A stretch of 64,000 nucleotides of DNA from Candidatus Melainabacteria bacterium (lineage in GTDB: Bacteria; Cyanobacteriota; Vampirovibrionia; 2-02-FULL-35-15). Below the pieces are notes generated by a model, which ran no database searches, had not been told where the DNA came from, and was given only the letters and a program-made list of their open reading frames with translations. The stretch is from positions 91,535 through 155,534 of the forward strand of contig JACPSL010000018.1 in the NCBI GenBank assembly GCA_016193285.1, read 5' to 3'. Shown one piece after another: positions 8,532 through 37,741 of the stretch. Numbering within the stretch: position 1 is the first letter of the stretch; each line of letters begins with the position of its first letter. A program made the translations under genes and the position numbers.

Positions 8532-9680
8532 ATGCAATTTGAAACAAAAGCAATTCACATTGGTCAAGAACCAGATCCAACTACTGGTGCAACTATTACA
8601 CCTATTTATCAGACATCTACCTTTACACAAGATGCTCTAGGAAAACACAAAGGCTATGAATATTCAAGAACTGGAAACCCTACACGAGCAGCACTTGAAA
8701 CTGTTTTAGCTTCACTTGAAAATGGAAAATATGGGCTTTGTTTTGCTTCTGGATTAGCAGCTACAGTAAATGTTTTATGCTTGTTACAAGCTGGTGATGA
8801 GATTTTAGCTTGTGATGATCTTTATGGCGGTACAATTAGACTCTTTAACAGAGTATTTCCTAACTTCAATATTAAAACTACTTATGTAGATGGTACAAAT
8901 CAAAAAAACTTTGAAGATGGAATTACATCAAAAACTAAATTAATCTGGATTGAAACACCAACTAACCCTATGCTAAGACTTTGTGATATAAGTGCTATTA
9001 GTAAAGTCGCAAGACAAAGGGCGGATGGCCATCTGCCCCTACTGGCTGTTGATAATACATTTGCAAGCCCATTTTTTCAAAAGCCTCTTGATCTTGGTGC
9101 AGACATTGTAATCCATAGCACAACTAAATACTTAGGTGGGCACAGTGATGTAGTTGGTGGCACAGTAATTGTAAGTGATAAAAATATTTATGAAAAAATA
9201 AAGTTTTATCAAAATGCTCTTGGTGCAACACCAGGACCACTTGATTCATGGCTCATACTAAGAGGGGTTAAAACCTTGGCACTTAGAATGAAAAAACATG
9301 AAGAAAATGCAATCAAGGTAGCAGAGTTTCTAGAAAAACATCCAATAGTAAAAAAAGTAAATTACCCAGGCTTAAAATCTCACCCTCAGTATGAACTTGC
9401 AAAAAAACAAATGACTGGGTTTGGTGGAATGATATCTTTTGAAGTAAAAGGTGGAAGAGACATTGTTAAAAAAATAGTTGAATCAACTAAGCTCTTTGCA
9501 CTTGCTGAAAGTCTTGGGGGAGTTGAATCGCTGATTAATTTCCCGTTTACAATGACTCATGCAGGAGTTCCTGATAATCATAAAGCAAGGCTTGGTATTA
9601 CAGAAAGTTTAATTAGACTTTCAGTAGGAATTGAAAATACAAATGATTTAATAGATGATTTAAGACAAGCACTAAGTTGA
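8532..9680 (+). CDS. Cystathionine gamma-lyase / gamma-synthase family PLP enzyme (MetB/MetC/MccB type).
   Basis: 382 aa. It has the Cys/Met-metabolism PLP-enzyme blocks YSRTGNPT and TKYLGGHSDVVGG, where the lysine binds PLP. Confidence 0.8.
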   Translation: MQFETKAIHIGQEPDPTTGATITPIYQTSTFTQDALGKHKGYEYSRTGNPTRAALETVLASLENGKYGLCFASGLAATVNVLCLLQAGDEILACDDLYGGTIRLFNRVFPNFNIKTTYVDGTNQKNFEDGITSKTKLIWIETPTNPMLRLCDISAISKVARQRADGHLPLLAVDNTFASPFFQKPLDLGADIVIHSTTKYLGGHSDVVGGTVIVSDKNIYEKIKFYQNALGATPGPLDSWLILRGVKTLALRMKKHEENAIKVAEFLEKHPIVKKVNYPGLKSHPQYELAKKQMTGFGGMISFEVKGGRDIVKKIVESTKLFALAESLGGVESLINFPFTMTHAGVPDNHKARLGITESLIRLSVGIENTNDLIDDLRQALS

Positions 9681-9768
9681 AAACAAAGACATACAAATTT
9701 CATTCCTTGGCAATCTATGTTAAAAATAAAAGAAGTTATTCTTAGGATCCAAGAAAGGAAAAAGAAAG

Positions 9769-10476
9769 ATGAAAAGTACAAACTCTAGAAAGAATTTTCT
9801 TTATGCTATTTTATTTTTAGTTGCTATATTCTTTAATAGTCTTCCTCTTTATGCACAAACACTACAAGTACAAGCTTCCTTATATAACAGGCTTGGAGGA
9901 GTATTTGTGATTAGCGCTGTTGTAGATGATTTTACTGAAAGGTTAGTTTCTGATCCTATTATTACTGCAAATCCAAACATTGTAGCTGCAATCTCTGAAA
10001 TTAATAAGCCAGGACTAAAGTTCCTTATAACTGAGTTCCTTTGTGATAGAAGTGGTGGACCACAAAAATATACAGGGAAAAATATGAAAGAAGCTCACCA
10101 AAATTTAAAAATTACAGAAATTGAGTGGGGTACATCAGTAAAAATATTACTTGATGCTCTTGCAAAACAAAATGTCCCAGAAAAAGAAAAAAATGAACTA
10201 GTTGCACTTATATCAAGCATAAAGGGAGATATTGTTTCAGCTGAAATAAAAGTTCCTACACCACAAGTTCCTCCATTACAAGTCCCTGCTCCACTAGGAC
10301 AAGCTCCTTTTCCACAAGTTGCTCCTCTCCCACAAGCTGCTCCTGAAGTGCAAGTTGTGCCACCTCCTTTACAAGCTCCACAACCTGTAATCCCACCAGT
10401 ACAAGCTGCACCTGTAATAGAAGCAGTACCTCCTGATATCGAAAATATACTTCCTGATCTAGCACCACCTGAGTAG
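9769..10476 (+). CDS. Group-1 truncated hemoglobin (2/2 Hb) with an N-terminal signal peptide and a C-terminal Pro/Gln/Val-rich repeat tail.
   Basis: LYNRLGG...FTERLVSDP...FLITEFLCDRSGGPQKYTGKNMKEAHQNLKITEIEW matches trHbN conserved blocks. The signal-peptide-like N-terminus ends LYA-QT. The tail is about 70 residues of PxQ/VPP repeats. Confidence 0.6.
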   Translation: MKSTNSRKNFLYAILFLVAIFFNSLPLYAQTLQVQASLYNRLGGVFVISAVVDDFTERLVSDPIITANPNIVAAISEINKPGLKFLITEFLCDRSGGPQKYTGKNMKEAHQNLKITEIEWGTSVKILLDALAKQNVPEKEKNELVALISSIKGDIVSAEIKVPTPQVPPLQVPAPLGQAPFPQVAPLPQAAPEVQVVPPPLQAPQPVIPPVQAAPVIEAVPPDIENILPDLAPPE

Positions 10477-10659
10477 CTATTTAATACATAGCATTAAATC
10501 CATCAAGCATTTTTAAAAACCTTGGAGATTCTGCTTGCTTTAAGATTTCAAGAAGCATTCTTACATGATCTATTGCTGCTTAGTTGCTTTCACAAATGTC
10601 AATAATTTATCATTAGAAGACTTGATTGTATAGCACTACAATATAGCCATGTCTATTTT

Positions 10660-11889
10660 GTGGTATACTGCAAAGTAGCCATGATAGAAAGAGAGCTATA
10701 TAGTTTAATAGAAAAAGATAGCAATCTAAGACAAATGTCTTTTGTTGCAGGGCCAAGACAAATAGGGAAAACAACTCTTGCTAAAGAATTATTGCATAAG
10801 CATAATTGCTCAGAGTTTTATTTTAATTGGGATTTAGCTTCTACAAGATCAAATTATAGAGAAAATTCAAATTTTTATTCTAACAACATAGGGAACAGGA
10901 AGAAGGTCTGGATTTGTTTTGATGAAATCCACAAACTAAGAAAATGGAAAAATATATTAAAAGAGCATTTTGACAAAAATGAAGGCAGAATGAAAACAAT
11001 AATTACTGGAAGTGCAAGGTTAGATCTGTTTAGAAAATCTGGAGATAGTCTTGCAGGAAGATATTTTTTATATCATTTGTTACCTTTAACGCTAAGTGAA
11101 ATTTCAGCAAGGGGAAAAAATGTTGAAGAGAAGCTAGCATCAGCAATAGACTTTATTGAATTAAGAATAAGTAGGAAAGTTAAATCTAAAAACTCAATTG
11201 ATCAGCTACTAAGATTCAGTGGTTTTCCAGAGCCCTTTAAAATAGCTTCTGAAGATTTCCATACAAAGTGGAAAAAGTCTTATGTTGACAGGCTAATCTA
11301 TGAAGATTTGAGAGAGATATCACAGATTCAAGACCTGGAAAAAACTGCACTATTAATTGATTTACTGCCAGAAAGAATAGGAGCACTTTTATCAATTAAT
11401 TCACTAAGTGAAGATTTAGAAGTAAATTTCAGAACAGCTAAAAATTATCTTAAAGCATTAGAATTAACTTACATATTGTTTTTTATTAAACCCTATACAA
11501 AAAATATTTCAAGATCGGTAAGAAAAGAACAAAAAGTCTATTTCTATGACTGGACAAGAATTAACAATGAATCAAATAGATTTGAAAATTATGTTGCATG
11601 TGAACTTTTTATACTAGTTTCCTTCTGGAATGATTCTGGATATGGATATTATGACTTGAATTTTATTAGAACAAAAGATGGAAAAGAAACAGACTTTCTA
11701 ATTATAAAAGATAAGAAACCCTGGTTACTTATAGAGGTAAAGCTTGCGTCAAAGGAAATAAAGTCGCATCATATTACACAAGCAAAATACTTAGGTAATA
11801 TTCCGGTTATTCAGATAGTTTATGAAGGAAGTGTAATAAAAAGATTAGATAAGAATTTGTTTATAATTTCTGCTGAAAAGTTTTTTTAA
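10660..11889 (+). CDS. AAA-family ATPase with a DUF4143-type C-terminus.
   Basis: Walker A GPRQIGKTT, Walker B-like WICFDEIH, and the architecture typical of the ATPase-DUF4143 family. The true start may be the ATG at 10681. Confidence 0.55.
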   Translation: MVYCKVAMIERELYSLIEKDSNLRQMSFVAGPRQIGKTTLAKELLHKHNCSEFYFNWDLASTRSNYRENSNFYSNNIGNRKKVWICFDEIHKLRKWKNILKEHFDKNEGRMKTIITGSARLDLFRKSGDSLAGRYFLYHLLPLTLSEISARGKNVEEKLASAIDFIELRISRKVKSKNSIDQLLRFSGFPEPFKIASEDFHTKWKKSYVDRLIYEDLREISQIQDLEKTALLIDLLPERIGALLSINSLSEDLEVNFRTAKNYLKALELTYILFFIKPYTKNISRSVRKEQKVYFYDWTRINNESNRFENYVACELFILVSFWNDSGYGYYDLNFIRTKDGKETDFLIIKDKKPWLLIEVKLASKEIKSHHITQAKYLGNIPVIQIVYEGSVIKRLDKNLFIISAEKFF

Positions 11890-29976: not shown

Positions 29977-30381
29977 ATGAAAAAAAACTTGTTTTTACTT
30001 TTACTTCTAGTTAGCATTGTGTTTCCAATGAGCACAATAAAAGCTAATGCTGCGGTAGAAGATATTGTTAAACAAACTACTGGAGTAGTCCTAGGAGTTG
30101 GTGCTGGACCAGTAGTTGGTGGCTTGCGTGGTTTCCTAAAAGGGTTGCTATGGGGAAAAGACGCAACTGCTGAAGCATTAGGGGACAAAGACGGTGTAGC
30201 TCAACAAGCAGTTGGTTATGCAACTGGTGGTGTAGTTGGTGCAGCTGCAGGTGGAGTTTCTGGAGTACTCATGGGTGCTTATGACGGCATTAAATATGGC
30301 TGGGATAAACCATGGTCACATGAAAACTTTAGCTGTGGTGGAAAAGGCTTAACTGATTATGATCCATTTAAGTGGGAATAA
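29977..30381 (+). CDS. Small secreted glycine-zipper protein, paralog of 46375..46845.
   Basis: Signal peptide. GVVLGVGAGPVVGGLRGFLKGLLWG...ATGGVVGAAAGGVSGVLMGAYDG, and a shared C-terminal KPFSC / ENFSCG motif with the paralog. Confidence 0.45.
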   Translation: MKKNLFLLLLLVSIVFPMSTIKANAAVEDIVKQTTGVVLGVGAGPVVGGLRGFLKGLLWGKDATAEALGDKDGVAQQAVGYATGGVVGAAAGGVSGVLMGAYDGIKYGWDKPWSHENFSCGGKGLTDYDPFKWE

Positions 30382-30415: not shown

Positions 30416-30448
30416 AAGAGGCTTACAAATAAGTCTCTTTTTTTTTCA
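30416..30448 (+). terminator. Rho-independent terminator.
   Basis: 10-bp stem AAGAGGCTTA/TAAGTCTCTT (one G-U pair), CAAA loop, then T9. Confidence 0.6.
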
Positions 30449-30572
30449 TGCTTTTAGTCTAGGAAACATTTACCACATTTTATCCAGCACTAAACTTATT
30501 AGTCGATTTAACTTTTATGTAAAAGTGCGAATAATTACTTTATAACAGTAATCATTGCAAGCGAGGAAAAAT

Positions 30573-31166
30573 ATGTTTAAGCATTTAACAAGTTTAATTT
30601 TAGCCTTGATTTTTAGTATACAGTTTATTTGTACAAAGACATTTGCAGAAGTTATAGTTCCTTTAAATGTTACTGTTAATGGATCGTTTGTTATAACTGA
30701 TGCTGCAAATGACAGTATGTCAGGTACAAATCCAACTATAAATGTAAACCTAAATGTTACACCAGATATTGGTGCAGGTACAGTTAATGGTCAAGCTAAT
30801 TTTAGAATAAGAACAAATCGAACTACATGGAGATTAACTACACAAAAAACAGCTACAAATACAGGAGGTACAGGACTTGCAGATACTGATGTTTCTCTTA
30901 TAGTTTCAAAGTCAGCTGGATCTACTGGAAATGCAAATGCTGGTAATCTTGTTGCACCATTTAATGCTCCAACTACAATAGCTTCAATACCAACTGCTAC
31001 AGCTATAGATGTAATTAGTGGTACAGCAAAAACATCAGGTGCAAAAGATGGTACAAATACAAATAACTATTTTCAGGTAAACACAACTTATGGTGTGCAG
31101 CCGGATTTCTTTTATTCACCCGGGACATTTAGTACAACAATTACATACAATTTAGTAAGTCCATAA
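30573..31166 (+). CDS. Fimbrial subunit-like secreted protein, family member 1 (SCPU/Csu-pilin-like). It is the probable major subunit.
   Basis: Signal peptide, then an alternating-hydrophobic strand VPLNVTVNGSFVITDA. NFRIRTNRTTWRLT motif. C-terminal DFFYSPGTFSTTITYNLVSP. GAGG RBS before the ATG at 30573; the ORF track used a TTG at 30555. Confidence 0.5.
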   Translation: MFKHLTSLILALIFSIQFICTKTFAEVIVPLNVTVNGSFVITDAANDSMSGTNPTINVNLNVTPDIGAGTVNGQANFRIRTNRTTWRLTTQKTATNTGGTGLADTDVSLIVSKSAGSTGNANAGNLVAPFNAPTTIASIPTATAIDVISGTAKTSGAKDGTNTNNYFQVNTTYGVQPDFFYSPGTFSTTITYNLVSP

Positions 31167-31175
31167 CGTTTTTAT

Positions 31176-31250
31176 AGAAACAAGGTCACCTTGTCTCTTT
31201 AGTACAAATATCCTTTTATTTAAGTAGAGGCAAGGTAACCTCGTCTCTAC
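31176..31250 (+). promoter_or_regulatory. Two tandem related hairpins between the major subunit gene and the usher-like gene. This is a likely attenuator, and the hairpins are degenerate copies of the GTAGAGACG palindrome family.
   Basis: agaaacaagg-tcac-cttgtctct at 31176-31199 and gtagaggcaagg-taa-cctcgtctctac at 31224-31250. Confidence 0.5.
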
Positions 31251-31280
31251 TTTGAACATTTGTGGAATGAACATCTGTAG

Positions 31281-33947
31281 ATGAGATATTTATTAAAAAA
31301 AATATTCTTGTTAATATTGCTTTTACTTGTGTGTAATATTTGTTTTACTTTTAAGCCTTTATGTGCTCAGTTAATGACACCAGCTAATCAGTTAGAACCA
31401 CCAGAAGTAATATTAAACAACCAAAAAATAATTTTTACCAGGAAACCTATTCTTGACAATGAAGGCTGGCTTTTTCCACTGGAAGAAGTAGCAGTAAAAC
31501 TTCAAGACAAAGTTAGTGTAGATATTGTAGGTGGCACAATTACAATTCAAAGATATAGAGATAAATCAATTGTTGAGCTAAACGTAAGAAATGGAACTGT
31601 AACGGTAAACAACAGCCCGTTTAAAACTCTTTTTGGCTATAACAGAATTATTTTAGGACAAGATGTACAAATGGTTCCTACAAGTGCATTAGTAATTTTA
31701 CTTGGATTAGCTGTTAAAGATAATGATGAAGGAAAGTTAATTTTAAATAATACAATTGGAACAGATTCTACTTATCTTGGAACTATACAGCCACTCTCTC
31801 GAAAAGGCGTTAAAGATCTTTTAGTAGATTACTTAACAGTAACTAATTCATTTAACTGGTTAAAAACTCAGGAGCAATACCAAAGAAGAACAGAGATAAA
31901 CAGTGGGTTTCATAATGATGACTATACTCTTACATCTGATTTTTTAGTAAAAGCAGGTACAGATGCACCACTTGTAAATTTTGATACTGCTAATGTTTCA
32001 CTTTATAAAAATGCATCGCCATTTCAGTTTCACCTTGGTGATAGGCCTCTTAGCTTAGTTAAATCTCCTTTGCTTGGTGGCATTACACTCCGTGGTATAC
32101 AAATTCAAACAGATGGGAAACTAAAAGATAGTAAGTTTGTTTTTGGTGCAGGTGTTTTACCAAGTGATGGTAAAGTATTAGGCAAAGGACTTTCTTTTGT
32201 AAGGTATGGAAGAATTGCTGAGATAGCTGAATGGTCTACCTCTCCAAATAAAGACTGGCAGTTTTCTATAGGTGAAGCTACATACAATGACTTAATACCA
32301 AATCAGTTAATAATGTCAAGGCAAACAGGAGCACTTCTTGCAGCAAGTATTACAAAAACAGGAAAATATATTGAAGGAGATTCTAATTTTGCATTTGGAA
32401 CTTCAAGTGACATTCTAACTAAAGAAAATTTCTCAGGACCTGGTACTGATTTATTAATAAGGCTTAAGCCAAAAAAATATTTTAGTTTGTTTACTAAAGG
32501 AGCATATTATTCTCCTGGATTTTATCCACTTTCAGGTAACCCTTACTTTCATGACAGGAATGAAGCTACTGTTGGTTTTAATTTAACTCCATCAAGATCA
32601 AATATAGGATTTAGTCACTCTGTAGGAAAATACAATTTTAATGCTAATAGACCAAATACCTATAGTGTTAGCAATCTTTTTGCTTCTACAACGCCTTTTA
32701 AAAAAGGACCAACACTCCTTGCAAGTTATTCCCAAAACAAGTCACAAATTAGCTCAACAAGAGCAGTTGATAATCTTTTGTTTCCAATAAATAAAACAAA
32801 TATTTCATCTATTGATCTTGATACCTTAATAGAACGTAGAACTAATTCTTTTTTTAGAGCAAGTTTACTTAAGAGCTGGGCAACAGCAAATGTAAGTTCA
32901 AGTATTAATTATTTTACATTTGCAAATAACAATCCTTTAAAAGCTTCAATCTTACAGAATCAACCTCTGACAAAACTTGTAACTTATGATTTTAATTTCA
33001 ATAAGTATTTAAATAAAGTTTTTGGGTTACAGACTTATTTTCAAGGTAGTGAATTATATAAGCAAATTAAATTAGGTTTTAATTTAGGTCCAGTATTTAA
33101 CAATAAACTAAATCTCCAGTTTTTAACTGGTGCATTAATGCAAACAAAAAAAGAACTAAGCCCAATCTATACAGTTCGTTTAAATTATCAAGTAAACAGT
33201 ATGAATCAGTATAATTTAGACCTTGATAAAACTCCTTATTTTACACAAGTATCTGCTCTTTGGCAGTATAATTTACGCCCTAAAAGAGCAGGAACATTAC
33301 CACAAGTTGGTGAGGCTCAATCGGTTGGAAGAATAAAAGGCAGGGTTATTGTACTTGAAGAATCAAATAAAGAGCAAGCTATTAGTAATAGAATTGTTTT
33401 ACCTTCTACACATGAGAGAGGATTAGCTAATGTAAGGATTCACTTGGGAAATTACACTATTATGACTGATGAAAAAGGTTATTTTGAATTCCCAAGTCTT
33501 ACAAATGGTATACATACTGTCCGAGTTGAATATTCTGATCTCCCATCATATTTAACTTCTATTACTCCTGAAAAAGTTGATATTAAAGTAGAATCTGGAA
33601 AAGAAACAAACTTTAATTTTGTTCTAGCTTATTTTGGTGAAGTAAAAGGAAAAATTAAATTAGCAAATGAACCACTAGTGAAACCTGAAGAAGAGCCAGA
33701 GTTACAAGACATTAGGGTTTATCTTGAAGGTACTGATGTTGAGACACTTACTAATATAGATGGTTCATTTGTATTAGGAGATGTTAAACCAGGAAAATAT
33801 AAATTAAAAGTTGATCCAGATTTTCTTCCAGATATATTAGAAGCTTCTCAAGAATTAGAATTAGAAGTTCATGGAAAACAAAAAATTGAAAATATTCAGT
33901 TGCCTATTAGATTTAAATCAAAACAAACTGAAATAAAAGAATTTTAG
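31281..33947 (+). CDS. Large outer-membrane usher-like protein (888 aa) with two C-terminal carboxypeptidase-regulatory/transthyretin-like beta-sandwich domains.
   Basis: Signal peptide, a long beta-rich middle with many aromatic-X-aromatic stretches, and a terminal F. Two GxVxxxxxxxPLxxVRIxLxGTDxxTxTxxDGSF-type domains at the C-terminus fit usher CTD1/CTD2. Confidence 0.4.
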   Translation: MRYLLKKIFLLILLLLVCNICFTFKPLCAQLMTPANQLEPPEVILNNQKIIFTRKPILDNEGWLFPLEEVAVKLQDKVSVDIVGGTITIQRYRDKSIVELNVRNGTVTVNNSPFKTLFGYNRIILGQDVQMVPTSALVILLGLAVKDNDEGKLILNNTIGTDSTYLGTIQPLSRKGVKDLLVDYLTVTNSFNWLKTQEQYQRRTEINSGFHNDDYTLTSDFLVKAGTDAPLVNFDTANVSLYKNASPFQFHLGDRPLSLVKSPLLGGITLRGIQIQTDGKLKDSKFVFGAGVLPSDGKVLGKGLSFVRYGRIAEIAEWSTSPNKDWQFSIGEATYNDLIPNQLIMSRQTGALLAASITKTGKYIEGDSNFAFGTSSDILTKENFSGPGTDLLIRLKPKKYFSLFTKGAYYSPGFYPLSGNPYFHDRNEATVGFNLTPSRSNIGFSHSVGKYNFNANRPNTYSVSNLFASTTPFKKGPTLLASYSQNKSQISSTRAVDNLLFPINKTNISSIDLDTLIERRTNSFFRASLLKSWATANVSSSINYFTFANNNPLKASILQNQPLTKLVTYDFNFNKYLNKVFGLQTYFQGSELYKQIKLGFNLGPVFNNKLNLQFLTGALMQTKKELSPIYTVRLNYQVNSMNQYNLDLDKTPYFTQVSALWQYNLRPKRAGTLPQVGEAQSVGRIKGRVIVLEESNKEQAISNRIVLPSTHERGLANVRIHLGNYTIMTDEKGYFEFPSLTNGIHTVRVEYSDLPSYLTSITPEKVDIKVESGKETNFNFVLAYFGEVKGKIKLANEPLVKPEEEPELQDIRVYLEGTDVETLTNIDGSFVLGDVKPGKYKLKVDPDFLPDILEASQELELEVHGKQKIENIQLPIRFKSKQTEIKEF

Positions 33948-34139
33948 GTTTTTATTTCTAGAGTAATAGTATAAAGAGCCCTAACTTTTAAATATTAGTA
34001 ACTTCGTACCGATAACAAACTCGGGAGAGAAATAATTACGAGAAAGACTTGGACTTAAGTCTAAAACAGATTGTTTTTCTTATGGCTGGGAAAAATTTTC
34101 TTTTGTAATTTTAAATCTGCTTCCAGAAAGGAGCAAACT

Positions 34140-34742
34140 ATGTTTAAAGAAATCATGAGACTATTAGCAGTAATAGCTATTCTCTGTTCTGCAAACATTG
34201 TTTGTGTAGATAGTGCATTTGCAGCAGGTACTGTACCATTATCAATTACTGTTAATGGTTCACTTGTAATCTCAGATGCTGATAATGACACTATGGCAGG
34301 AAAAGATCCTACAAAGAATGTTAGTTTAACAATTACACCTGATCTTGGCCACACTTTACAAAGTGGTAGTGCTAATTTTAGGCTAAGAACTAACCGTTCA
34401 ACGTGGAGGTTAACTGCTCAGCGTACAGCAACAAATGCTGGTGGTACTGCAATTGCAGATAGTGATGTCAAGGTTGACATTAGTAAATCTGCAGGTTCAA
34501 CAGCAAGTGCTGCCGCAGGTTCTTTAGTTGCTCCGTTTACTGCACAAACTGACCTGACTTCTATTACTACAGCTAGTCCAGTTGATGTTATTAGTGGAAC
34601 AGCTAAAACATCTACAGCGCTAGATGCAAGTAATACAAACAACTGGTTTCAAGTTAATACTACGTATAGCTTGCAACCAGACTTTTTCTACGCACCAGGT
34701 ACGTTTAGTACAACCATAACGTACAATTTTGTGTCACCGTAG
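34140..34742 (+). CDS. Fimbrial subunit-like protein, family member 2.
   Basis: RBS AGGAG then ATG at 34140. TVPLSITVNGSLVISDA...NFRLRTNRSTWRLTAQRTATN...DFFYAPGTFSTTITYNFVSP. About 60% identical to member 1. Confidence 0.55.
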   Translation: MFKEIMRLLAVIAILCSANIVCVDSAFAAGTVPLSITVNGSLVISDADNDTMAGKDPTKNVSLTITPDLGHTLQSGSANFRLRTNRSTWRLTAQRTATNAGGTAIADSDVKVDISKSAGSTASAAAGSLVAPFTAQTDLTSITTASPVDVISGTAKTSTALDASNTNNWFQVNTTYSLQPDFFYAPGTFSTTITYNFVSP

Positions 34743-34749
34743 GAGAAAT

Positions 34750-34821
34750 AGCAATCAGCAGTCAGCAGTCAGCAATCAGCAAAATAAAAGAGCTGATAGC
34801 TGAATGCTGATAGCTGATAGC
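34750..34821. repeat. Long imperfect hairpin built from heptamer repeats, (AGCARTC)n facing (GCTGAWW)n. STRR-like; probably a terminator.
   Basis: agcaatcagcagtcagcagtcagcaatcagc aaaataaaagag gctgatagctgaatgctgatagctgatagct. Confidence 0.6.
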
Positions 34822-34936
34822 TTGTTAATCCTAGACTTATCAAATGATTTTTATTTTTTCAGTACTAAATTACTAAGACTTTTTAATTTGATAAAAATAA
34901 TTTTGGGCATGTTATTCTTGCAACAAAAAAACACAT

Positions 34937-35542
34937 ATGAAATTCAATTTTCAGATCATTTATTTGTTCCTAGTGGTATTAATAGTTTTATCATTGATAC
35001 CAATAAAATCTTTTTCTCAATCTGCAACAGTACCAGTCAATATAACTGTAAACGGGACTTTTACAATTTCAGATGCTGCAAATGATTCAAACTCTGGAAA
35101 AAATCCCACCATAAATGTAAATTTATCTGTCACTCCTGATCTTGGAGCTGCACCTGCAACTGGAGATGCTAATTTTAGAATTCGTACAAATAGATCTACA
35201 TGGAGACTTACTGCACAAAGAACATTAGAGATTGATATAGGACCTACAAATATTACTTCAAAAGATATTGGACTACTTGTTACTACTCAAGCAGGAATTA
35301 ATGCAAATGCTGCAGCAGGAACATTAGTACCACCATTTAACAGTCAAACAAATTTAAATGCAATATTAACTTCTTCCCCAGTAGATGTCATAAGTGGCAC
35401 AGCAAAAACATCTACTGCCAGAGATACTACAAATACCAATAACTATTTTCAGGTTAATACTCGCTATAGTATTCTTCCTGACTTTTTTTACCAACCTGGT
35501 ATTTGGAGAACAACCATTACTTATAATCTTGTAAGCCCGTAA
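34937..35542 (+). CDS. Fimbrial subunit-like protein, family member 3.
   Basis: TVPVNITVNGTFTISDAANDS...NFRIRTNRSTWRLTAQRT...DFFYQPGIWRTTITYNLVSP. Confidence 0.55.
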   Translation: MKFNFQIIYLFLVVLIVLSLIPIKSFSQSATVPVNITVNGTFTISDAANDSNSGKNPTINVNLSVTPDLGAAPATGDANFRIRTNRSTWRLTAQRTLEIDIGPTNITSKDIGLLVTTQAGINANAAAGTLVPPFNSQTNLNAILTSSPVDVISGTAKTSTARDTTNTNNYFQVNTRYSILPDFFYQPGIWRTTITYNLVSP

Positions 35543-35676
35543 GCCTCTTTAATAGTAATAACCCTAAGTACTATCGCTTTTTATTTAGGTTCTTTTAACA
35601 TATTTATCCGATAGTATTTGTATACTAGAACCAAAGGACTAAATTCTAGTTCCAGCCATAAGAAAAACAATCGCTC

Positions 35677-36288
35677 ATGACCTTGAAAAATTACATAGCA
35701 AGGATATTAATTCTTTTTACTGCTAGCGCATGCATTTTTATTTCTTCAAGTAATTTAAATGTGAAGTCAAGCCAAGCAACAATACCTTTAAATATTGTTG
35801 TCCTTGGAAAGCTGGTTATAACTGATGCAATTAATGACAATAGTCTTAGTAAAGACCCTACTATAAATGTCTTGCTGAGGCTGACACCCGATTTAAGTAA
35901 CTCAGTAGTTTCAGGAAGTGCTGCAATAAGAATAAGAACAAATTTAAACAAGTGGAAACTTACTGCTCAAAGAACAAATATTACTAATTCTCTTCAAATA
36001 GATCCAAGTGATATATCAATAACTTATACAACTCAAACAGGCTCAAAAGGAAACCCAAATGCTGCTAGTTTGAATCCTCCTTTTGATATGGCAACAAACT
36101 TAAGTCAGATTTTAACTAGCTTTCCTACTGAAGTCTTAATTGGTAACAGTAAAACATCACTTGATAAGGAGCCTGATAATAAAAACAACTGGTTTCAATT
36201 AACTTCAAATTATAGTATCCTGCCTGACTTTTTCTATGACATAGGGGAATTAAATACTACGATTAGTTATAGTTTAGTAAGTCCATAA
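35677..36288 (+). CDS. Fimbrial subunit-like protein, family member 4 (more divergent).
   Basis: TIPLNIVVLGKLVITDAINDN...IRIRTNLNKWKLTAQRT...DFFYDIGELNTTISYSLVSP. Confidence 0.5.
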   Translation: MTLKNYIARILILFTASACIFISSSNLNVKSSQATIPLNIVVLGKLVITDAINDNSLSKDPTINVLLRLTPDLSNSVVSGSAAIRIRTNLNKWKLTAQRTNITNSLQIDPSDISITYTTQTGSKGNPNAASLNPPFDMATNLSQILTSFPTEVLIGNSKTSLDKEPDNKNNWFQLTSNYSILPDFFYDIGELNTTISYSLVSP

Positions 36289-36317
36289 ATAAGAACATAT
36301 AATAATATTGATTGTAG

Positions 36318-36869
36318 ATGCCCAAAGCTTTTTATATATTTTTCTTTGCTTTAATATTTTTCATTGCCTTTTCAGGTTGTGCTTTAGCCTGTCTGTCATT
36401 TACTGATGACTATAATTTTCCAAATCCTGTATTAAATGCAAACTTTAATATTTTGCCAGATGTTAGTCCTTTTACTGAATGTTGGACTGGTGTTTTTAGA
36501 ATAAGAAGTAAACAAAATGGCTGGCGTCTAATTGCAAGTAGAGAAGGTCCAATGCCATTACAAGCTAGTGGTGCTCCAGCTGATAATGTTAAAGCTAGTG
36601 ATGTAACGCTTGATTTTTCAATAAAAAGCTTTGGGCAAGCTCCACCGAACGGTGCTGTTTTAGTTTCTCCATTTTCTTCAATAACAAATCTGTCTTCAAT
36701 TCAGTCAGGGACTTTTATTGTTTCAGGTATAGCAAAATCCAGTAATAGTTGTTCATCTAACAATCCAAGTTTTTATAGACTTACAAAAAACCTTTGTTTG
36801 TTTCATGATTTTGTATTTAATCCAGGGGAATATAATGGACAAGTGTCATATATTTTAGTGGCACCGTAG
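36318..36869 (+). CDS. Divergent, Cys-containing member of the same family. Possibly a tip/minor subunit or adhesin.
   Basis: FRIRSKQNGWRLIASREG...YILVAP. Unlike the other members it has Cys residues (C21, C25, CW, CSSNN...C). Confidence 0.4.
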   Translation: MPKAFYIFFFALIFFIAFSGCALACLSFTDDYNFPNPVLNANFNILPDVSPFTECWTGVFRIRSKQNGWRLIASREGPMPLQASGAPADNVKASDVTLDFSIKSFGQAPPNGAVLVSPFSSITNLSSIQSGTFIVSGIAKSSNSCSSNNPSFYRLTKNLCLFHDFVFNPGEYNGQVSYILVAP

Positions 36870-36877
36870 GAGAAGGT

Positions 36878-37741
36878 ATGGGAGTATCGGCGCATCAACG
36901 TGTTTTAATTTTCCTGATTTTGTTAGGAGTATTATTTTCTCAAAATACAAAAGCTTTGGCCTGGACTGTTTCACCAGTTAGGTTTGAAGTTAAAGCTGAA
37001 AAAGGGAAAGAATATACATTAACCTTTTCAGTATTAAATGAAAGTCAGCTTTATCAAAAAAGATTTGAAATCCAAACAGATGATTGGGTAATAGATAAAG
37101 AAAATAATTTTCTAAGGAAAGCTTTTAATAAAAATTTAGAAATAAAATATTCAGCAACATCATGGATTAGAGTTTCACCACAACAGTTTGTGCTTCCGCC
37201 AGGACAGTCAAAAAGTGTTAGATTTACCATTGCTGTTCCAAGTAATCTTGATGGAGATGGAGAATATAAAACAGGTATTTTTGTAGGTGAAAAAAATATT
37301 GAAAAGCCTCCAAAAGGAGAAAAAATTGTTCATATAAAACAAGATACTTATATTGGTGTAATTGTTTATGTAAAAATTGGAGAAGAAAAACCAGAAATTA
37401 TTTTAAAAGATTTTAAAGTAAGTACAAAACCACAAGAAAAAAACTTACATAAGGTAACAATTTATCCTGTTTATGAAAGCCATGGGAATGTTCATTCAAG
37501 AGGACAAATCTCAGTAAAGATGGAACCACTCTCAGCTATTGGCCCTAACCTCCCAGCTCCTGATGCTTTTAATGCTGGCGAGTTAGTTGTTTTAAGAGGA
37601 ACAGAAGTTGCATATCCAATTGATATTCCTGTTTTACTTCCAGCAAATAGTGAATGGAAGTTTGTTGTAACTAGTGATTTCGGTAATAAGACACCTAATC
37701 TTGTTGGGACTAAGAAATATAAGATACCTTTACACCCATAA
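36878..37741 (+). CDS. PapD-like periplasmic pilus chaperone candidate.
   Basis: Signal peptide. N-domain AWTVSPVRFEVKAEKGKEYTLTFSVLNES...WIRVSPQQFVLPPGQSKSVRFTIAVP resembles the chaperone N-domain pattern. RBS AGGAGAAGG. 287 aa. Confidence 0.45.
   Translation: MGVSAHQRVLIFLILLGVLFSQNTKALAWTVSPVRFEVKAEKGKEYTLTFSVLNESQLYQKRFEIQTDDWVIDKENNFLRKAFNKNLEIKYSATSWIRVSPQQFVLPPGQSKSVRFTIAVPSNLDGDGEYKTGIFVGEKNIEKPPKGEKIVHIKQDTYIGVIVYVKIGEEKPEIILKDFKVSTKPQEKNLHKVTIYPVYESHGNVHSRGQISVKMEPLSAIGPNLPAPDAFNAGELVVLRGTEVAYPIDIPVLLPANSEWKFVVTSDFGNKTPNLVGTKKYKIPLHP

What the first reader, a model, noticed from the sequence alone, without database searches (positions are those of the whole stretch)
30555..37741. 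Csu/sigma-type (SCPU-like) chaperone-usher fimbrial locus with atypical organisation: five paralogous subunits, usher-like OMP, PapD-like chaperone.
Five tandem paralogs encode about 200-aa secreted proteins. They share a post-signal alternating-hydrophobic strand (VPLNVTVNGSFVITDA, compatible with a donor strand), an NFRIRTNRSTWRLTAQRT block and a DFFYxPGxxxTTITYNLVSP C-terminus. They sit with an 888-aa outer-membrane protein that has two C-terminal beta-sandwich (carboxypeptidase-regulatory-like) domains, and with a 287-aa periplasmic protein whose N-domain resembles pilus chaperones. The gene order (major subunit, hairpin attenuator, usher, four minor subunits including a Cys-containing one, then chaperone) differs from csuA/B-A-B-C-D-E and from fim/pap. 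The subunits are longer than typical SCPU pilins. If the host really belongs to the cyanobacterial sister lineage, a chaperone-usher system there would itself be unusual. It may instead be a new surface-fibre family that only superficially resembles chaperone-usher systems.
Basis: partly seen in the sequence, partly recalled or inferred. Interest (0 to 1): 0.8.

Follow-up and report, generated by a model that had tools for sequence, protein, structure and literature searches.

The report
Divergent chaperone-usher-like pilus locus
A Melainabacteria chromosome carries a conserved gene cluster that looks, by predicted structure, like a chaperone-usher pilus machine, yet it matches no known pilus family by sequence, and its "chaperone" is instead related to the WxL-interacting surface proteins of Gram-positive bacteria.

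Summary
Five paralogous ~200-aa secreted proteins, an 888-aa outer-membrane protein and a 287-aa periplasmic protein lie on the + strand at 30555-37741.

The label "Csu/sigma-type SCPU chaperone-usher locus" fails every sequence test. There is no Usher, PapD or SCPU hit even at E<=1, and profile-profile comparison with E. coli ushers, chaperones and pilins is non-significant.

At the fold level the chaperone-usher idea holds:
- The 888-aa model's top 11 Foldseek hits are all full-length FimD/PapC ushers (E 2e-15 to 8e-9; next is BtuB at 2e-6).
- The confident subunit model best matches donor-strand-exchange fibre subunits (TLP-1, FimG, cannulae, TasA, PapA, CsuA/B).
- Four paralogues carry an alternating-hydrophobic N-terminal extension. 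The fifth, Cys-stapled class lacks it, as a tip subunit would.

The 287-aa protein is a homologue of the Firmicute WxL-interacting protein (DUF916+DUF3324; hhalign 95%, E 4e-8, 221 columns) without its membrane anchor.

The same three components recur in unrelated high-GC contigs in the classical order subunit-chaperone-usher.

I read this as a sequence-orphan chaperone-usher-like class with a DUF916-type chaperone. The mechanism is inferred, not demonstrated.

The parts
30573..31166 (+). Subunit class W1 (197 aa from ATG 30573; the ORF is open from TTG 30555). Candidate major fibre subunit. It has a signal peptide followed by the N-terminal extension VIVPLNVTVNG.
31176..31250 (+). Stem-loop between the W1 gene and the usher-like gene. 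Candidate partial terminator or mRNA stabiliser that would set the major-to-minor stoichiometry.
   Evidence: RNA fold MFE -31.1 kcal/mol, z -2.94; intergenic z -3.9, and strong hairpins at the same position in L021 and L022 but not L024, with no sequence conservation; terminator-like site 31180-31194.
31281..33947 (+). Usher-like outer-membrane protein (888 aa): signal peptide, Cu_amine_oxidN1-type N-terminal domain (45-151), a conserved but poorly modelled linker (160-236), about 22-24 long beta-strands (238-663), and two CarboxypepD_reg-type beta-sandwich C-terminal domains.
34069..34086 (+). 18-bp motif GATTGTTTTTCTTATGGC upstream of the W2 gene. An exact inverted copy lies at 35655-35672. 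Possible regulatory site, function unknown.
   Evidence: Two exact copies against 0.01 expected by chance; related motif in the W1-usher intergenic region of L021 and L022.
34140..34742 (+). Subunit class W2 (200 aa), with N-terminal extension TVPLSITVNG.
34743..34830 (+). Long CAGC/GCTG-rich hairpin immediately after the W2 stop codon.
   Evidence: The W2-W3 intergenic region has MFE -52 kcal/mol, z -5.6.
34937..35542 (+). Subunit class W3 (201 aa), with N-terminal extension TVPVNITVNG.
35655..35672 (-). Inverted exact copy of the 18-bp motif, just upstream of the W4 start codon.
35677..36288 (+). Subunit class W4 (203 aa), more divergent (41% to W1), with N-terminal extension TIPLNIVVLG.
36318..36869 (+). 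Subunit class W5 (183 aa). It lacks the N-terminal extension, its mature N-terminus starts at a conserved Cys, and it has four conserved Cys. Candidate tip (acceptor-only) subunit.
   Evidence: Gap over the extension in alignments; four Cys conserved in orthologues of L019-L024; always the last subunit gene, directly before the chaperone-like gene, and the pair stays together in the split locus L020.
36878..37741 (+). Chaperone-like periplasmic protein (287 aa): signal peptide, DUF916-like Ig domain and a second beta domain, with no membrane anchor. WxLIP homologue.
   Evidence: Pfam WxLIP_PGBD E 4e-4 over 36-134 and in 28 of 33 family members; hhalign against WxLIP 88-93% with signal peptides trimmed and 95.0%, E 3.7e-8, 221 columns spanning both domains; against PapD-like chaperones 8-29%.

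Best explanation
The locus encodes a very divergent chaperone-usher-like machine that builds a heteropolymeric surface fibre on a diderm Melainabacteria cell.

Proposed pathway. Steps marked (inferred) are not shown by any result here.
1. All seven proteins are exported by Sec (signal peptides read from the sequence).
2. In the periplasm the 287-aa DUF916/DUF3324 protein, a soluble relative of Firmicute WxLIP, binds each newly folded subunit. It completes the subunit's beta-sandwich with one of its own strands, probably from the conserved hairpin GIFVGEKNIEKPPKGEKIVHIKQDTYIGVIVYV (inferred).
3. The chaperone-subunit complexes dock on the periplasmic domains of the 888-aa usher-like barrel (inferred).
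4. At the usher, the alternating-hydrophobic N-terminal extension of the incoming subunit replaces the chaperone strand, which is donor-strand exchange, and the fibre is threaded out through the barrel (inferred).
5. W5 has no extension and a disulfide-stapled N-terminus, so it would enter first and form the tip. W4, W3 and W2 would be adaptors or minor subunits. W1 is encoded alone in front of a stem-loop and would be the abundant shaft subunit (inferred).

For: Chaperone-like protein: homologous to WxLIP. For WxLIP, AlphaFold2 predicts insertion of a strand into a gap of the WxL beta-sandwich (PMC10599100).

Genetic coherence: there are five positional orthologue classes in fixed order. All three components are homologous in four compositionally distinct lineages (L010, L027, L028, L009; GC 50-67%) when tested with Melainabacteria-only HMMs (subunits E 2e-11 to 4e-5, chaperone-like 7e-27 to 9e-14, usher-like 2e-23 to 4e-13). 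There the order is subunit-subunit-chaperone-like-usher(-subunit), as in fim and cupE.

Stem-loops follow the first subunit gene in 3 of 4 loci.
Confidence: 0.6

Rival explanations
1. A bona fide archaic (sigma/Csu/CupE-type, SCPU) chaperone-usher system, that is simply too diverged for a quick look.
Against: No SCPU (PF05229), Usher (PF00577) or PapD_N/C hit at E<=1 or E<=10 in any of 38 subunit-family, 33 chaperone-like or 21 usher-like members. Pfam's CU models cover the archaic class (established knowledge). The partner protein is DUF916/DUF3324, not PapD-like. The usher's N- and C-terminal domains belong to other families, Cu_amine_oxidN1 and CarboxypepD_reg. Csu and CupE are not the best structural matches.
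Confidence: 0.04
2. A diderm version of the WxL cell-surface complex. The small proteins would be non-polymerising surface proteins, held and presented by the DUF916 protein as proposed for WxL/WxLIP in Firmicutes, and the 888-aa barrel would merely export or anchor them.
For: The 287-aa protein is homologous to WxLIP over both domains (95%, E 3.7e-8). WxL clusters likewise have several tandem ~175-280-aa secreted paralogues directly followed by the WxLIP gene. The subunits share two collinear WxL-like motifs with almost the same spacing: R at W-6, W-x-L, then T-[WY]-x-L-x-[DS]-(x)-P at the C-terminus, 105-109 residues apart against mostly 104-106 in small WxL. One family member hits Pfam WxL at E 8e-4. 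The decoy test gives a weak positive signal.
Against: hhalign of subunits against WxL is about 1%, and only 1 of 38 members hits Pfam WxL. There is no LPXTG partner, no membrane anchor on the DUF916 protein, and the host is diderm. The OMP is specifically usher-like rather than a generic porin. An N-terminal extension present in four classes and missing in one is hard to explain without polymerisation. This rival and the best explanation are not mutually exclusive, because WxL clusters may themselves use strand complementation.
Confidence: 0.17
3. A chaperone-free donor-strand fibre of the TasA, TLP-1 or archaeal-cannula type. Subunits would self-assemble outside the cell, the 287-aa protein would be an accessory or nucleator (TapA-like) or an anchor, and the barrel would be only a secretion pore.
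Against: The subunits are strictly co-inherited with an usher-like OMP and the DUF916 protein in every lineage examined. The usher-type architecture, with periplasmic N- and C-terminal domains, implies assembly at the pore.
Confidence: 0.12
4. An outer-membrane uptake or transport complex (TonB-dependent or SusC-like barrel with accessory surface-binding proteins), not a fibre.
Against: Ushers beat TonB-dependent receptors by 3 to 9 orders of magnitude in Foldseek E-value. The CarboxypepD_reg domains are C-terminal, not N-terminal. There is no TonB-dependent receptor or plug Pfam hit. The small proteins are not lipoproteins, and their fold matches fibre subunits.
Confidence: 0.03

Closest known systems
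Chaperone-usher pili (classical Fim/Pap; archaic Csu/CupE)
   Same: The components are three: several small secreted subunits, one periplasmic two-domain partner and one large outer-membrane barrel. The 888-aa model superposes best on full-length FimD/PapC and has an N-terminal periplasmic domain plus two C-terminal beta-sandwiches. The subunit fold resembles pilins. Most subunits have an alternating-hydrophobic N-terminal extension, and the presumed tip subunit lacks it. The major subunit gene comes first and is followed by a stem-loop. In distant relatives the order is subunit-chaperone-usher-subunit.
   Different: No detectable sequence homology to any CU component. The usher's N-terminal domain is Cu_amine_oxidN1-type and its C-terminal domains are CarboxypepD_reg-type. 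No plug-sized insertion is evident. The partner protein belongs to the DUF916/DUF3324 (WxLIP) family, not the PapD family. Subunits are about 170 aa when mature, larger than Csu/CupE pilins. In Melainabacteria the chaperone-like gene is last and the usher gene second.
WxL / WxLIP (DUF916-DUF3324) cell-surface clusters of Bacilli (csc clusters of L. plantarum; Enterococcus, Listeria, Bacillus)
   Same: The 287-aa protein aligns with WxLIP over both domains (95%, E 3.7e-8, 221 columns; Pfam WxLIP_PGBD in 28 of 33 members). In both systems, tandem small secreted beta-sandwich paralogues lie directly upstream of the DUF916 gene. The two motifs and their spacing resemble those of small WxL domains (PMC9772566). 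AlphaFold2 predicts that a WxLIP strand completes the WxL sandwich (PMC10599100), which is the same principle as chaperone donor-strand complementation.
   Different: The host is diderm. There is an usher-like OMP. There is no C-terminal transmembrane helix on the DUF916 protein, no LPXTG protein and no large multi-domain WxL adhesin. Homology between the subunits and WxL is not statistically supported (hhalign about 1%). The second motif has Y in place of W.
Usher-independent donor-strand fibres: TLP-1 pond fibrils (PDB 9IKK), TasA, archaeal cannulae and bundling pili
   Different: There is no sequence similarity. Those systems have no usher-like OMP or DUF916 partner, so far as described. 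TLP-1's nearest predicted relative is a Flavobacteriales protein of unknown context (PMC11494351).

Membership tests
Fimbrial usher (Pfam PF00577 Usher, with PapC_N / PapC_C) | Significant match to the usher sequence profiles | tested here: not met
   No hit at E<=1 in Pfam or NCBIfam, and none in the precomputed Pfam of 28 homologues. hhalign against 6 E. coli ushers gives 0.4-2.5% probability. No PDB sequence hit.
Fimbrial usher (Pfam PF00577 Usher, with PapC_N / PapC_C) | Large (24-strand) translocation barrel flanked by a periplasmic N-terminal domain and two C-terminal beta-sandwich domains | tested here: met
Fimbrial usher (Pfam PF00577 Usher, with PapC_N / PapC_C) | Plug domain of about 80 residues inserted between barrel strands 6 and 7 | tested here: inconclusive
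   The DSSP string shows no inter-strand insertion longer than about 35 residues (487-520, helical). However, the model is of moderate confidence, and the conserved segment 160-236 is unmodelled and could gate the pore.
PapD-like periplasmic chaperone (PF00345 / PF02753) | Match to the PapD_N and PapD_C profiles | tested here: not met
   No hit at E<=1 for the window protein or at E<=0.01 in 33 family members. hhalign against 7 E. coli chaperones gives 6-29%, N-domain only, non-significant.
PapD-like periplasmic chaperone (PF00345 / PF02753) | Two Ig-like domains with a basic cleft (Arg8/Lys112) that binds the subunit C-terminus, and a G1 donor strand | not testable with these tools
Sequence shows a conserved basic residue in the first strand (R35; K in L010) and invariant R62, R115, H206 and R208, but their positions in 3D are unknown.
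SCPU / Csu-type archaic pilins (PF05229) | Match to the SCPU profile | tested here: not met
Donor-strand-exchange fibre subunits (general) | Beta-sandwich fold like that of known DSE subunits, with an N-terminal donor strand | tested here: met
WxLIP (DUF916 PF06030 + DUF3324 PF11797 + transmembrane helix) | DUF916 (PGBD) domain | tested here: met
   Pfam WxLIP_PGBD covers 36-134 against profile positions 19-117 of 121, at E 4e-4 (20.8 bits, below the 27.3-bit gathering cut-off). 28 of 33 members hit it, best E 1.5e-6. hhalign gives 87-91% for the N-domain alone. This shows homology at superfamily level, not Pfam-threshold membership.
WxLIP (DUF916 PF06030 + DUF3324 PF11797 + transmembrane helix) | DUF3324 (HBD) second domain in the same order | tested here: inconclusive
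   The C-domain alone is not significant (1-1.5%), and there is one weak Pfam hit in L010 (E 0.15). The full-length comparison, however, extends collinearly through both domains (221 columns, 95%).
WxLIP (DUF916 PF06030 + DUF3324 PF11797 + transmembrane helix) | C-terminal transmembrane helix anchoring the protein in the cytoplasmic membrane | tested here: not met
   The window protein ends 'KKYKIPLHP'. Homologues end in short or long Pro/Lys/Ala-rich tails without a hydrophobic helix.
WxL domain proteins (PF13731) | Two W-x-L motifs in the conserved context, with a match to the WxL profile | tested here: inconclusive
   Motif 1 (R at W-6, W-x-L) and the spacing match (105-109 against mostly 104-106 residues), and motif 2 has Y in place of W. 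Only P0244 hits Pfam WxL (E 8e-4). hhalign gives about 1%. In the decoy test the subunit HMM scores WxL proteins +3.6 bits against -0.9 +/- 2.7, and the WxL HMM scores P0244 12.0 bits, above all 920 decoys.

The most novel reading that the evidence does not exclude
This locus represents a fourth, sequence-orphan class of chaperone-usher pathway, in which the chaperone belongs to the DUF916/DUF3324 (WxLIP) family rather than the PapD family. By extension, the enigmatic WxL clusters of Gram-positive bacteria would be the monoderm, usher-less descendants or relatives of the same ancient donor-strand system. WxLIP would then be a membrane-tethered chaperone or assembly platform, and WxL proteins would be pilin-like, strand-deficient subunits. 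That would give WxL proteins a mechanism and extend usher-type fibre assembly to Melainabacteria and other uncultured diderm lineages.
Probability: 0.35. Interest if true: 0.85.

Novelty: new variant of a known kind. Interest (0 to 1): 0.72.

Why it matters
[quoted passage not shown] All three are recognisable by the same usher and PapD profiles. A system with an usher-like pore and pilin-like subunits but a DUF916-type partner would show that usher-mediated fibre assembly is older and more diverse than sequence searches reveal.

It would also give the first mechanistic handle on two orphan topics. One is the WxL/WxLIP surface clusters of enterococci, listeriae and lactobacilli, which are linked to virulence and adhesion but have no known mechanism. 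The other is environmental donor-strand fibres such as TLP-1, whose assembly machinery is unknown.

Finally, it identifies a conserved, chromosomally fixed surface organelle in non-photosynthetic relatives of cyanobacteria, organisms that have hardly been cultured. The hypothesis is directly testable by multimer structure prediction and by heterologous expression.

Tried and rejected
- Pfam and NCBIfam scans of all seven proteins and of family members for usher, PapD, SCPU and fimbrial families found nothing.
- Sequence and profile searches of all three families against PDB sequences gave only noise: vinculin, a designed Ig protein and EMC7.
- hhalign against home-made E. coli K-12 reference profiles (7 chaperones, 6 ushers, 15 pilins) was non-significant, both before and after adding divergent members and trimming signal peptides.
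- The exhaustive profile search of the subunit family over 1.84 billion representatives found only 37 hits and no link to an annotated family, apart from one weak WxL hit.
- hhalign of subunits against WxL, local and global, was not significant. The first decoy script returned nothing because of an invalid E-value option and was rerun.
- The afdb50 fold library was unavailable, so WxL and WxLIP AlphaFold models could not be compared structurally.
- Rfam found no RNA family in the locus.
- The GTDB genome scan relied on a single peptide pattern and recovered only eight Melainabacteria-type loci, so it says little about distribution elsewhere.
- Exact-sequence cluster look-ups gave no organism names for the divergent loci.
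- A lipoprotein reading of W5 ('FSGC') was rejected, because orthologues have A-x-A/Q-C contexts that do not fit a lipobox.
- The TonB-dependent or SusC transporter reading was rejected (see rivals).
- Recent horizontal transfer was rejected: the composition equals that of the flanks, and the locus keeps strict synteny, with NUDIX and nuoH downstream in nine related genomes and ispH upstream in six.
Full report
**1. What is there**

The region 30555-37741 contains seven co-oriented ORFs:
- a ~200-aa protein (W1, most likely starting at ATG 30573);
- an 888-aa protein;
- four further ~200-aa proteins (W2 34140-34742, W3 34937-35542, W4 35677-36288, W5 36318-36869);
- a 287-aa protein (36878-37741).

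All begin with signal-peptide-like N-termini. The five small proteins are genuine paralogues, 62, 57, 41 and 28% identical to W1.

The host is a Candidatus Melainabacteria MAG (locus tags HYY52_04250 to 04280). The locus has the same base composition as its flanks. In related genomes it keeps the same chromosomal position. NUDIX and nuoH lie downstream in nine of them. ispH lies upstream in six, and one to three copies of a secreted glycine-zipper protein lie upstream in seven. It is therefore an ancestral chromosomal locus, not a mobile island.

**2. Sequence tests of the chaperone-usher label**

None of the proteins hits the usher (PF00577), PapD_N/C (PF00345, PF02753), SCPU (PF05229) or any fimbrial family, even at E<=1, in Pfam or NCBIfam. 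The same holds for:
- 33 members of the 287-aa family at E<=0.01;
- 38 members of the subunit family at E<=10;
- the precomputed Pfam of 28 homologues of the 888-aa protein.

None of the three families matches any PDB sequence, either as single sequences or as profiles.

I also built reference profiles of 7 chaperones, 6 ushers and 15 pilins from six E. coli K-12 operons. Profile-profile comparison gives:
- <3% probability for the usher;
- 6-29% for the chaperone (N-domain only);
- 30% or less, over 15 columns or fewer, for the pilins.

Adding divergent members and trimming signal peptides did not change this. So the locus is not a member of the Csu/sigma or any other recognised CU class by sequence.

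**3. Structure tests**

*The 888-aa protein.* The AlphaFold2 model was built from 21 homologues and is of moderate confidence (pLDDT 67.6). It shows:
- an N-terminal domain (43-157; Pfam Cu_amine_oxidN1);
- a conserved but unmodelled segment (160-236);
- about 22-24 long antiparallel strands (238-663);
- two C-terminal beta-sandwiches (Pfam CarboxypepD_reg).

Foldseek is much more discriminating. The top 11 hits are all full-length FimD or PapC (E 2e-15 to 8e-9, 735-1009 alignment columns). The first non-usher, BtuB, is at 2e-6.

No plug-sized insertion is visible between strands. The largest insert is a ~35-residue helical segment at 487-520.

- FimG (6.9), archaeal cannulae CanX (6.6), TasA (6.3), PapA (6.2), CsuA/B (6.2);
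- CfaB, the Sulfolobus 0406 and Pyrobaculum bundling pilins, and CupE.

**4. Anatomy that fits donor-strand exchange**

- W1-W4 start, after the signal peptide, with an alternating-hydrophobic strand ending in G (T-V-P-L-N-I-T-V-N-G).
- Distant homologues keep the pattern but not the sequence (T-V-D-F-S-V-A-V-P; T-I-T-V-S-G-S-V-P).
- The W5 class lacks this segment altogether. Its mature N-terminus begins at a conserved Cys, and it carries four conserved Cys in the close orthologues. An acceptor-only subunit is what the tip of a donor-strand fibre requires.
- W1-W5 are five positional orthologue classes, kept in the same order in L019 and L021-L024. This argues for a defined heteropolymer.
- Nearly all family members end exactly at the conserved ...Y-x-L-V-S-P. 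This is reminiscent of the way CU chaperones grip the subunit C-terminus, but that is an inference.
- A stable stem-loop follows the W1 gene. Equivalent but unrelated hairpins occur in L021 and L022 and not in L024, consistent with differential expression of a major subunit.

**5. The 287-aa protein is a WxLIP homologue**

Its N-domain weakly hits Pfam WxLIP_PGBD (DUF916) over almost the whole profile. 28 of 33 family members do so (best E 1.5e-6), next to partial hits to fn3_5 and to ASH/Cep192-type Ig domains.

I used tryptic peptides of EfmWxLIP3, printed in a supplement of PMC10599100, as a seed. With them I retrieved seven annotated WxL clusters from Enterococcus, Melissococcus, Listeria and Bacillus plasmids and built WxL and WxLIP profiles. 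With signal peptides trimmed, the chaperone-like family matches WxLIP at:
- 88-93% probability (E 3e-6 to 4e-7, 136 columns = the whole DUF916 domain);
- 95.0% (E 3.7e-8, 221 columns running collinearly through both domains) with a more diverse alignment in the built-in tool.

Cross-controls gave:
- 0-30% for WxLIP against PapD-type chaperones, for WxL against pilins and for subunits against WxLIP, the higher values resting on alignments of fewer than 50 columns before signal-peptide trimming;
- 8-29% for the chaperone-like family against PapD-type chaperones.

Unlike WxLIP, the Melainabacteria protein has no C-terminal transmembrane helix.

This matters mechanistically. Hassan et al. report that AlphaFold2 confidently predicts a WxLIP hairpin strand inserting into a gap of the WxL beta-sandwich (PMC10599100). 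That is the principle of chaperone donor-strand complementation.

**6. Are the subunits WxL-like?**

Small WxL proteins are single ~180-aa domains. They have about 110 residues before motif 1 and about 106 between motifs, and motif 2 lies at the C-terminus (PMC9772566). The window subunits show:
- R at W-6, W-x-L and a following Q-containing strand in motif 1;
- F-x-T-T-I-T-Y-x-L-V-S-P-end against Y-x-T-x-L-T-W-x-L-x-D-x-P in motif 2;
- a spacing of 105-109 residues, against 104-106 in most of the WxL proteins I collected.

One family member (P0244, of the W5 class) hits Pfam WxL at E 8e-4 across both motifs. But only 1 of 38 members does so, and hhalign gives about 1%.

In a decoy test:
- the subunit HMM scores real WxL proteins +3.6 bits on average, against -0.9 +/- 2.7 for shuffles;
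- the WxL HMM scores P0244 at 12.0 bits, above all 920 decoys;
- the E. coli pilin controls show nothing.

I regard the link between the subunits and WxL as suggestive but unproven.

**7. Distribution**

The subunit family is tiny: 37 representatives at E<=1e-3 among 1.84 billion. The weakest of those hits, however, led to contigs of quite different composition:
- L010 (50% GC): subunit, subunit, 344-aa, 893-aa, subunit-like;
- L027 (50% GC): subunit, subunit, 366-aa, 878-aa, subunit-like;
- L028 (59% GC): subunit, subunit, 291-aa, 1005-aa;
- L009 (67% GC): subunit, 294-aa.

So this is a conserved three-component system spread over several uncultured lineages. Outside Melainabacteria it uses the classical CU gene order. 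Within Melainabacteria-type MAGs the order is (W1)-usher-W2-W3-W4-W5-chaperone-like.

The GTDB scan found eight such loci. It was limited to one peptide pattern and so cannot bound the distribution. I found no paper linking WxL or DUF916 to chaperone-usher systems, or describing CU systems in Melainabacteria, in the searchable library.

**8. Verdict**

The most economical reading is a chaperone-usher-like fibre assembly system that is a sequence orphan relative to the three recognised CU classes, and whose chaperone slot is filled by a soluble WxLIP-family protein.

Shown by results here:
- the gene set and its conservation;
- the usher-like fold;
- the DSE-type subunit fold;
- the homology to WxLIP;
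- the pattern of presence and absence of the N-terminal extension.

Inferred:
- strand donation by the 287-aa protein;
- donor-strand exchange at the usher;
- W5 as the tip and W1 as the shaft;
- the existence of a fibre at all.

I rate it a new variant of a known kind. There is a roughly one-in-three chance that it also reveals the evolutionary and mechanistic origin of Gram-positive WxL clusters.

Noticed in passing
window 34069-34086 (+) and 35655-35672 (-): There are two exact 18-bp copies of GATTGTTTTTCTTATGGC in inverted orientation, each just upstream of a subunit gene (W2 and W4). A related motif (GATGRTTGTTTTTCTWATGGCTAGGAAA) lies between the W1-class gene and the usher gene in L021 and L022. 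It could be a regulator-binding site or a small RNA hairpin.
   Followed up: partly
window 34743-34830: A long, nearly perfect hairpin built from CAGC/GCTG-type repeats lies directly after the W2 stop codon (intergenic MFE -52 kcal/mol, z -5.6).
   Followed up: no
window 29977-30381 (and about 30418-30450): A 134-aa secreted glycine-zipper protein, followed by a terminator-like hairpin and T-run, is a conserved upstream neighbour of the locus. It is present in 1-3 tandem copies in L001, L019, L021, L022 and L024-L026, and absent from the divergent L010, L027 and L028 loci. This is probably synteny rather than a core component.
   Followed up: partly
L025 (CAZRTB010000001.1): The record is titled 'uncultured Gammaproteobacteria bacterium'. 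Yet it carries the same locus in the same synteny, with NuoH, NUDIX and IspH 72-79% identical to the window's. It is most likely a mislabelled Melainabacteria-type MAG.
   Followed up: partly
L020 (MFRN01000041.1) 9360-10891: In this MAG only the W5-class subunit and the chaperone-like gene sit next to NUDIX and nuoH. No usher, ispH or glycine-zipper gene lies within 10 kb upstream, and the other subunit genes carry distant locus tags (A3I68_04015 and A3I68_04025, against A3I68_01475). The locus seems to be split, with W5 and the chaperone-like gene staying together.
   Followed up: no
L010 3203-4788 and 183-2795; L027 527-1105: In the divergent high-GC loci, ECF sigma-factor genes (and in L010 a Ser/Thr kinase with TPR repeats) lie directly upstream of the subunit genes. 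They are candidate regulators and are absent from the Melainabacteria version.
   Followed up: no
L010 10802-11308; L027 7513-8169: Downstream of the usher-like gene in the divergent loci lies a further, very divergent subunit-like protein (C-terminal ...AAQYYNANTASNLKLVLTIKQIG in L027). It has a different N-terminus and may be the tip subunit or adhesin of those systems.
   Followed up: no
L001 1687-2580 and 2875-6375; L025, L026: In the more distant Melainabacteria-type loci the usher-like protein is about 1000-1170 aa, with about 200 extra N-terminal residues (Cu_amine_oxidN1 at 263-367 in L001). In L001 a 297-aa protein of unknown family replaces the W1-class gene in front of it.
   Followed up: no
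P0244, P0242 (W5-class homologues): The weak similarity to the Pfam and home-made WxL profiles is strongest in the W5 class, the one with conserved Cys and no N-terminal extension (12.0 and 7.1 bits, against a decoy maximum of 8.6).
   Followed up: partly
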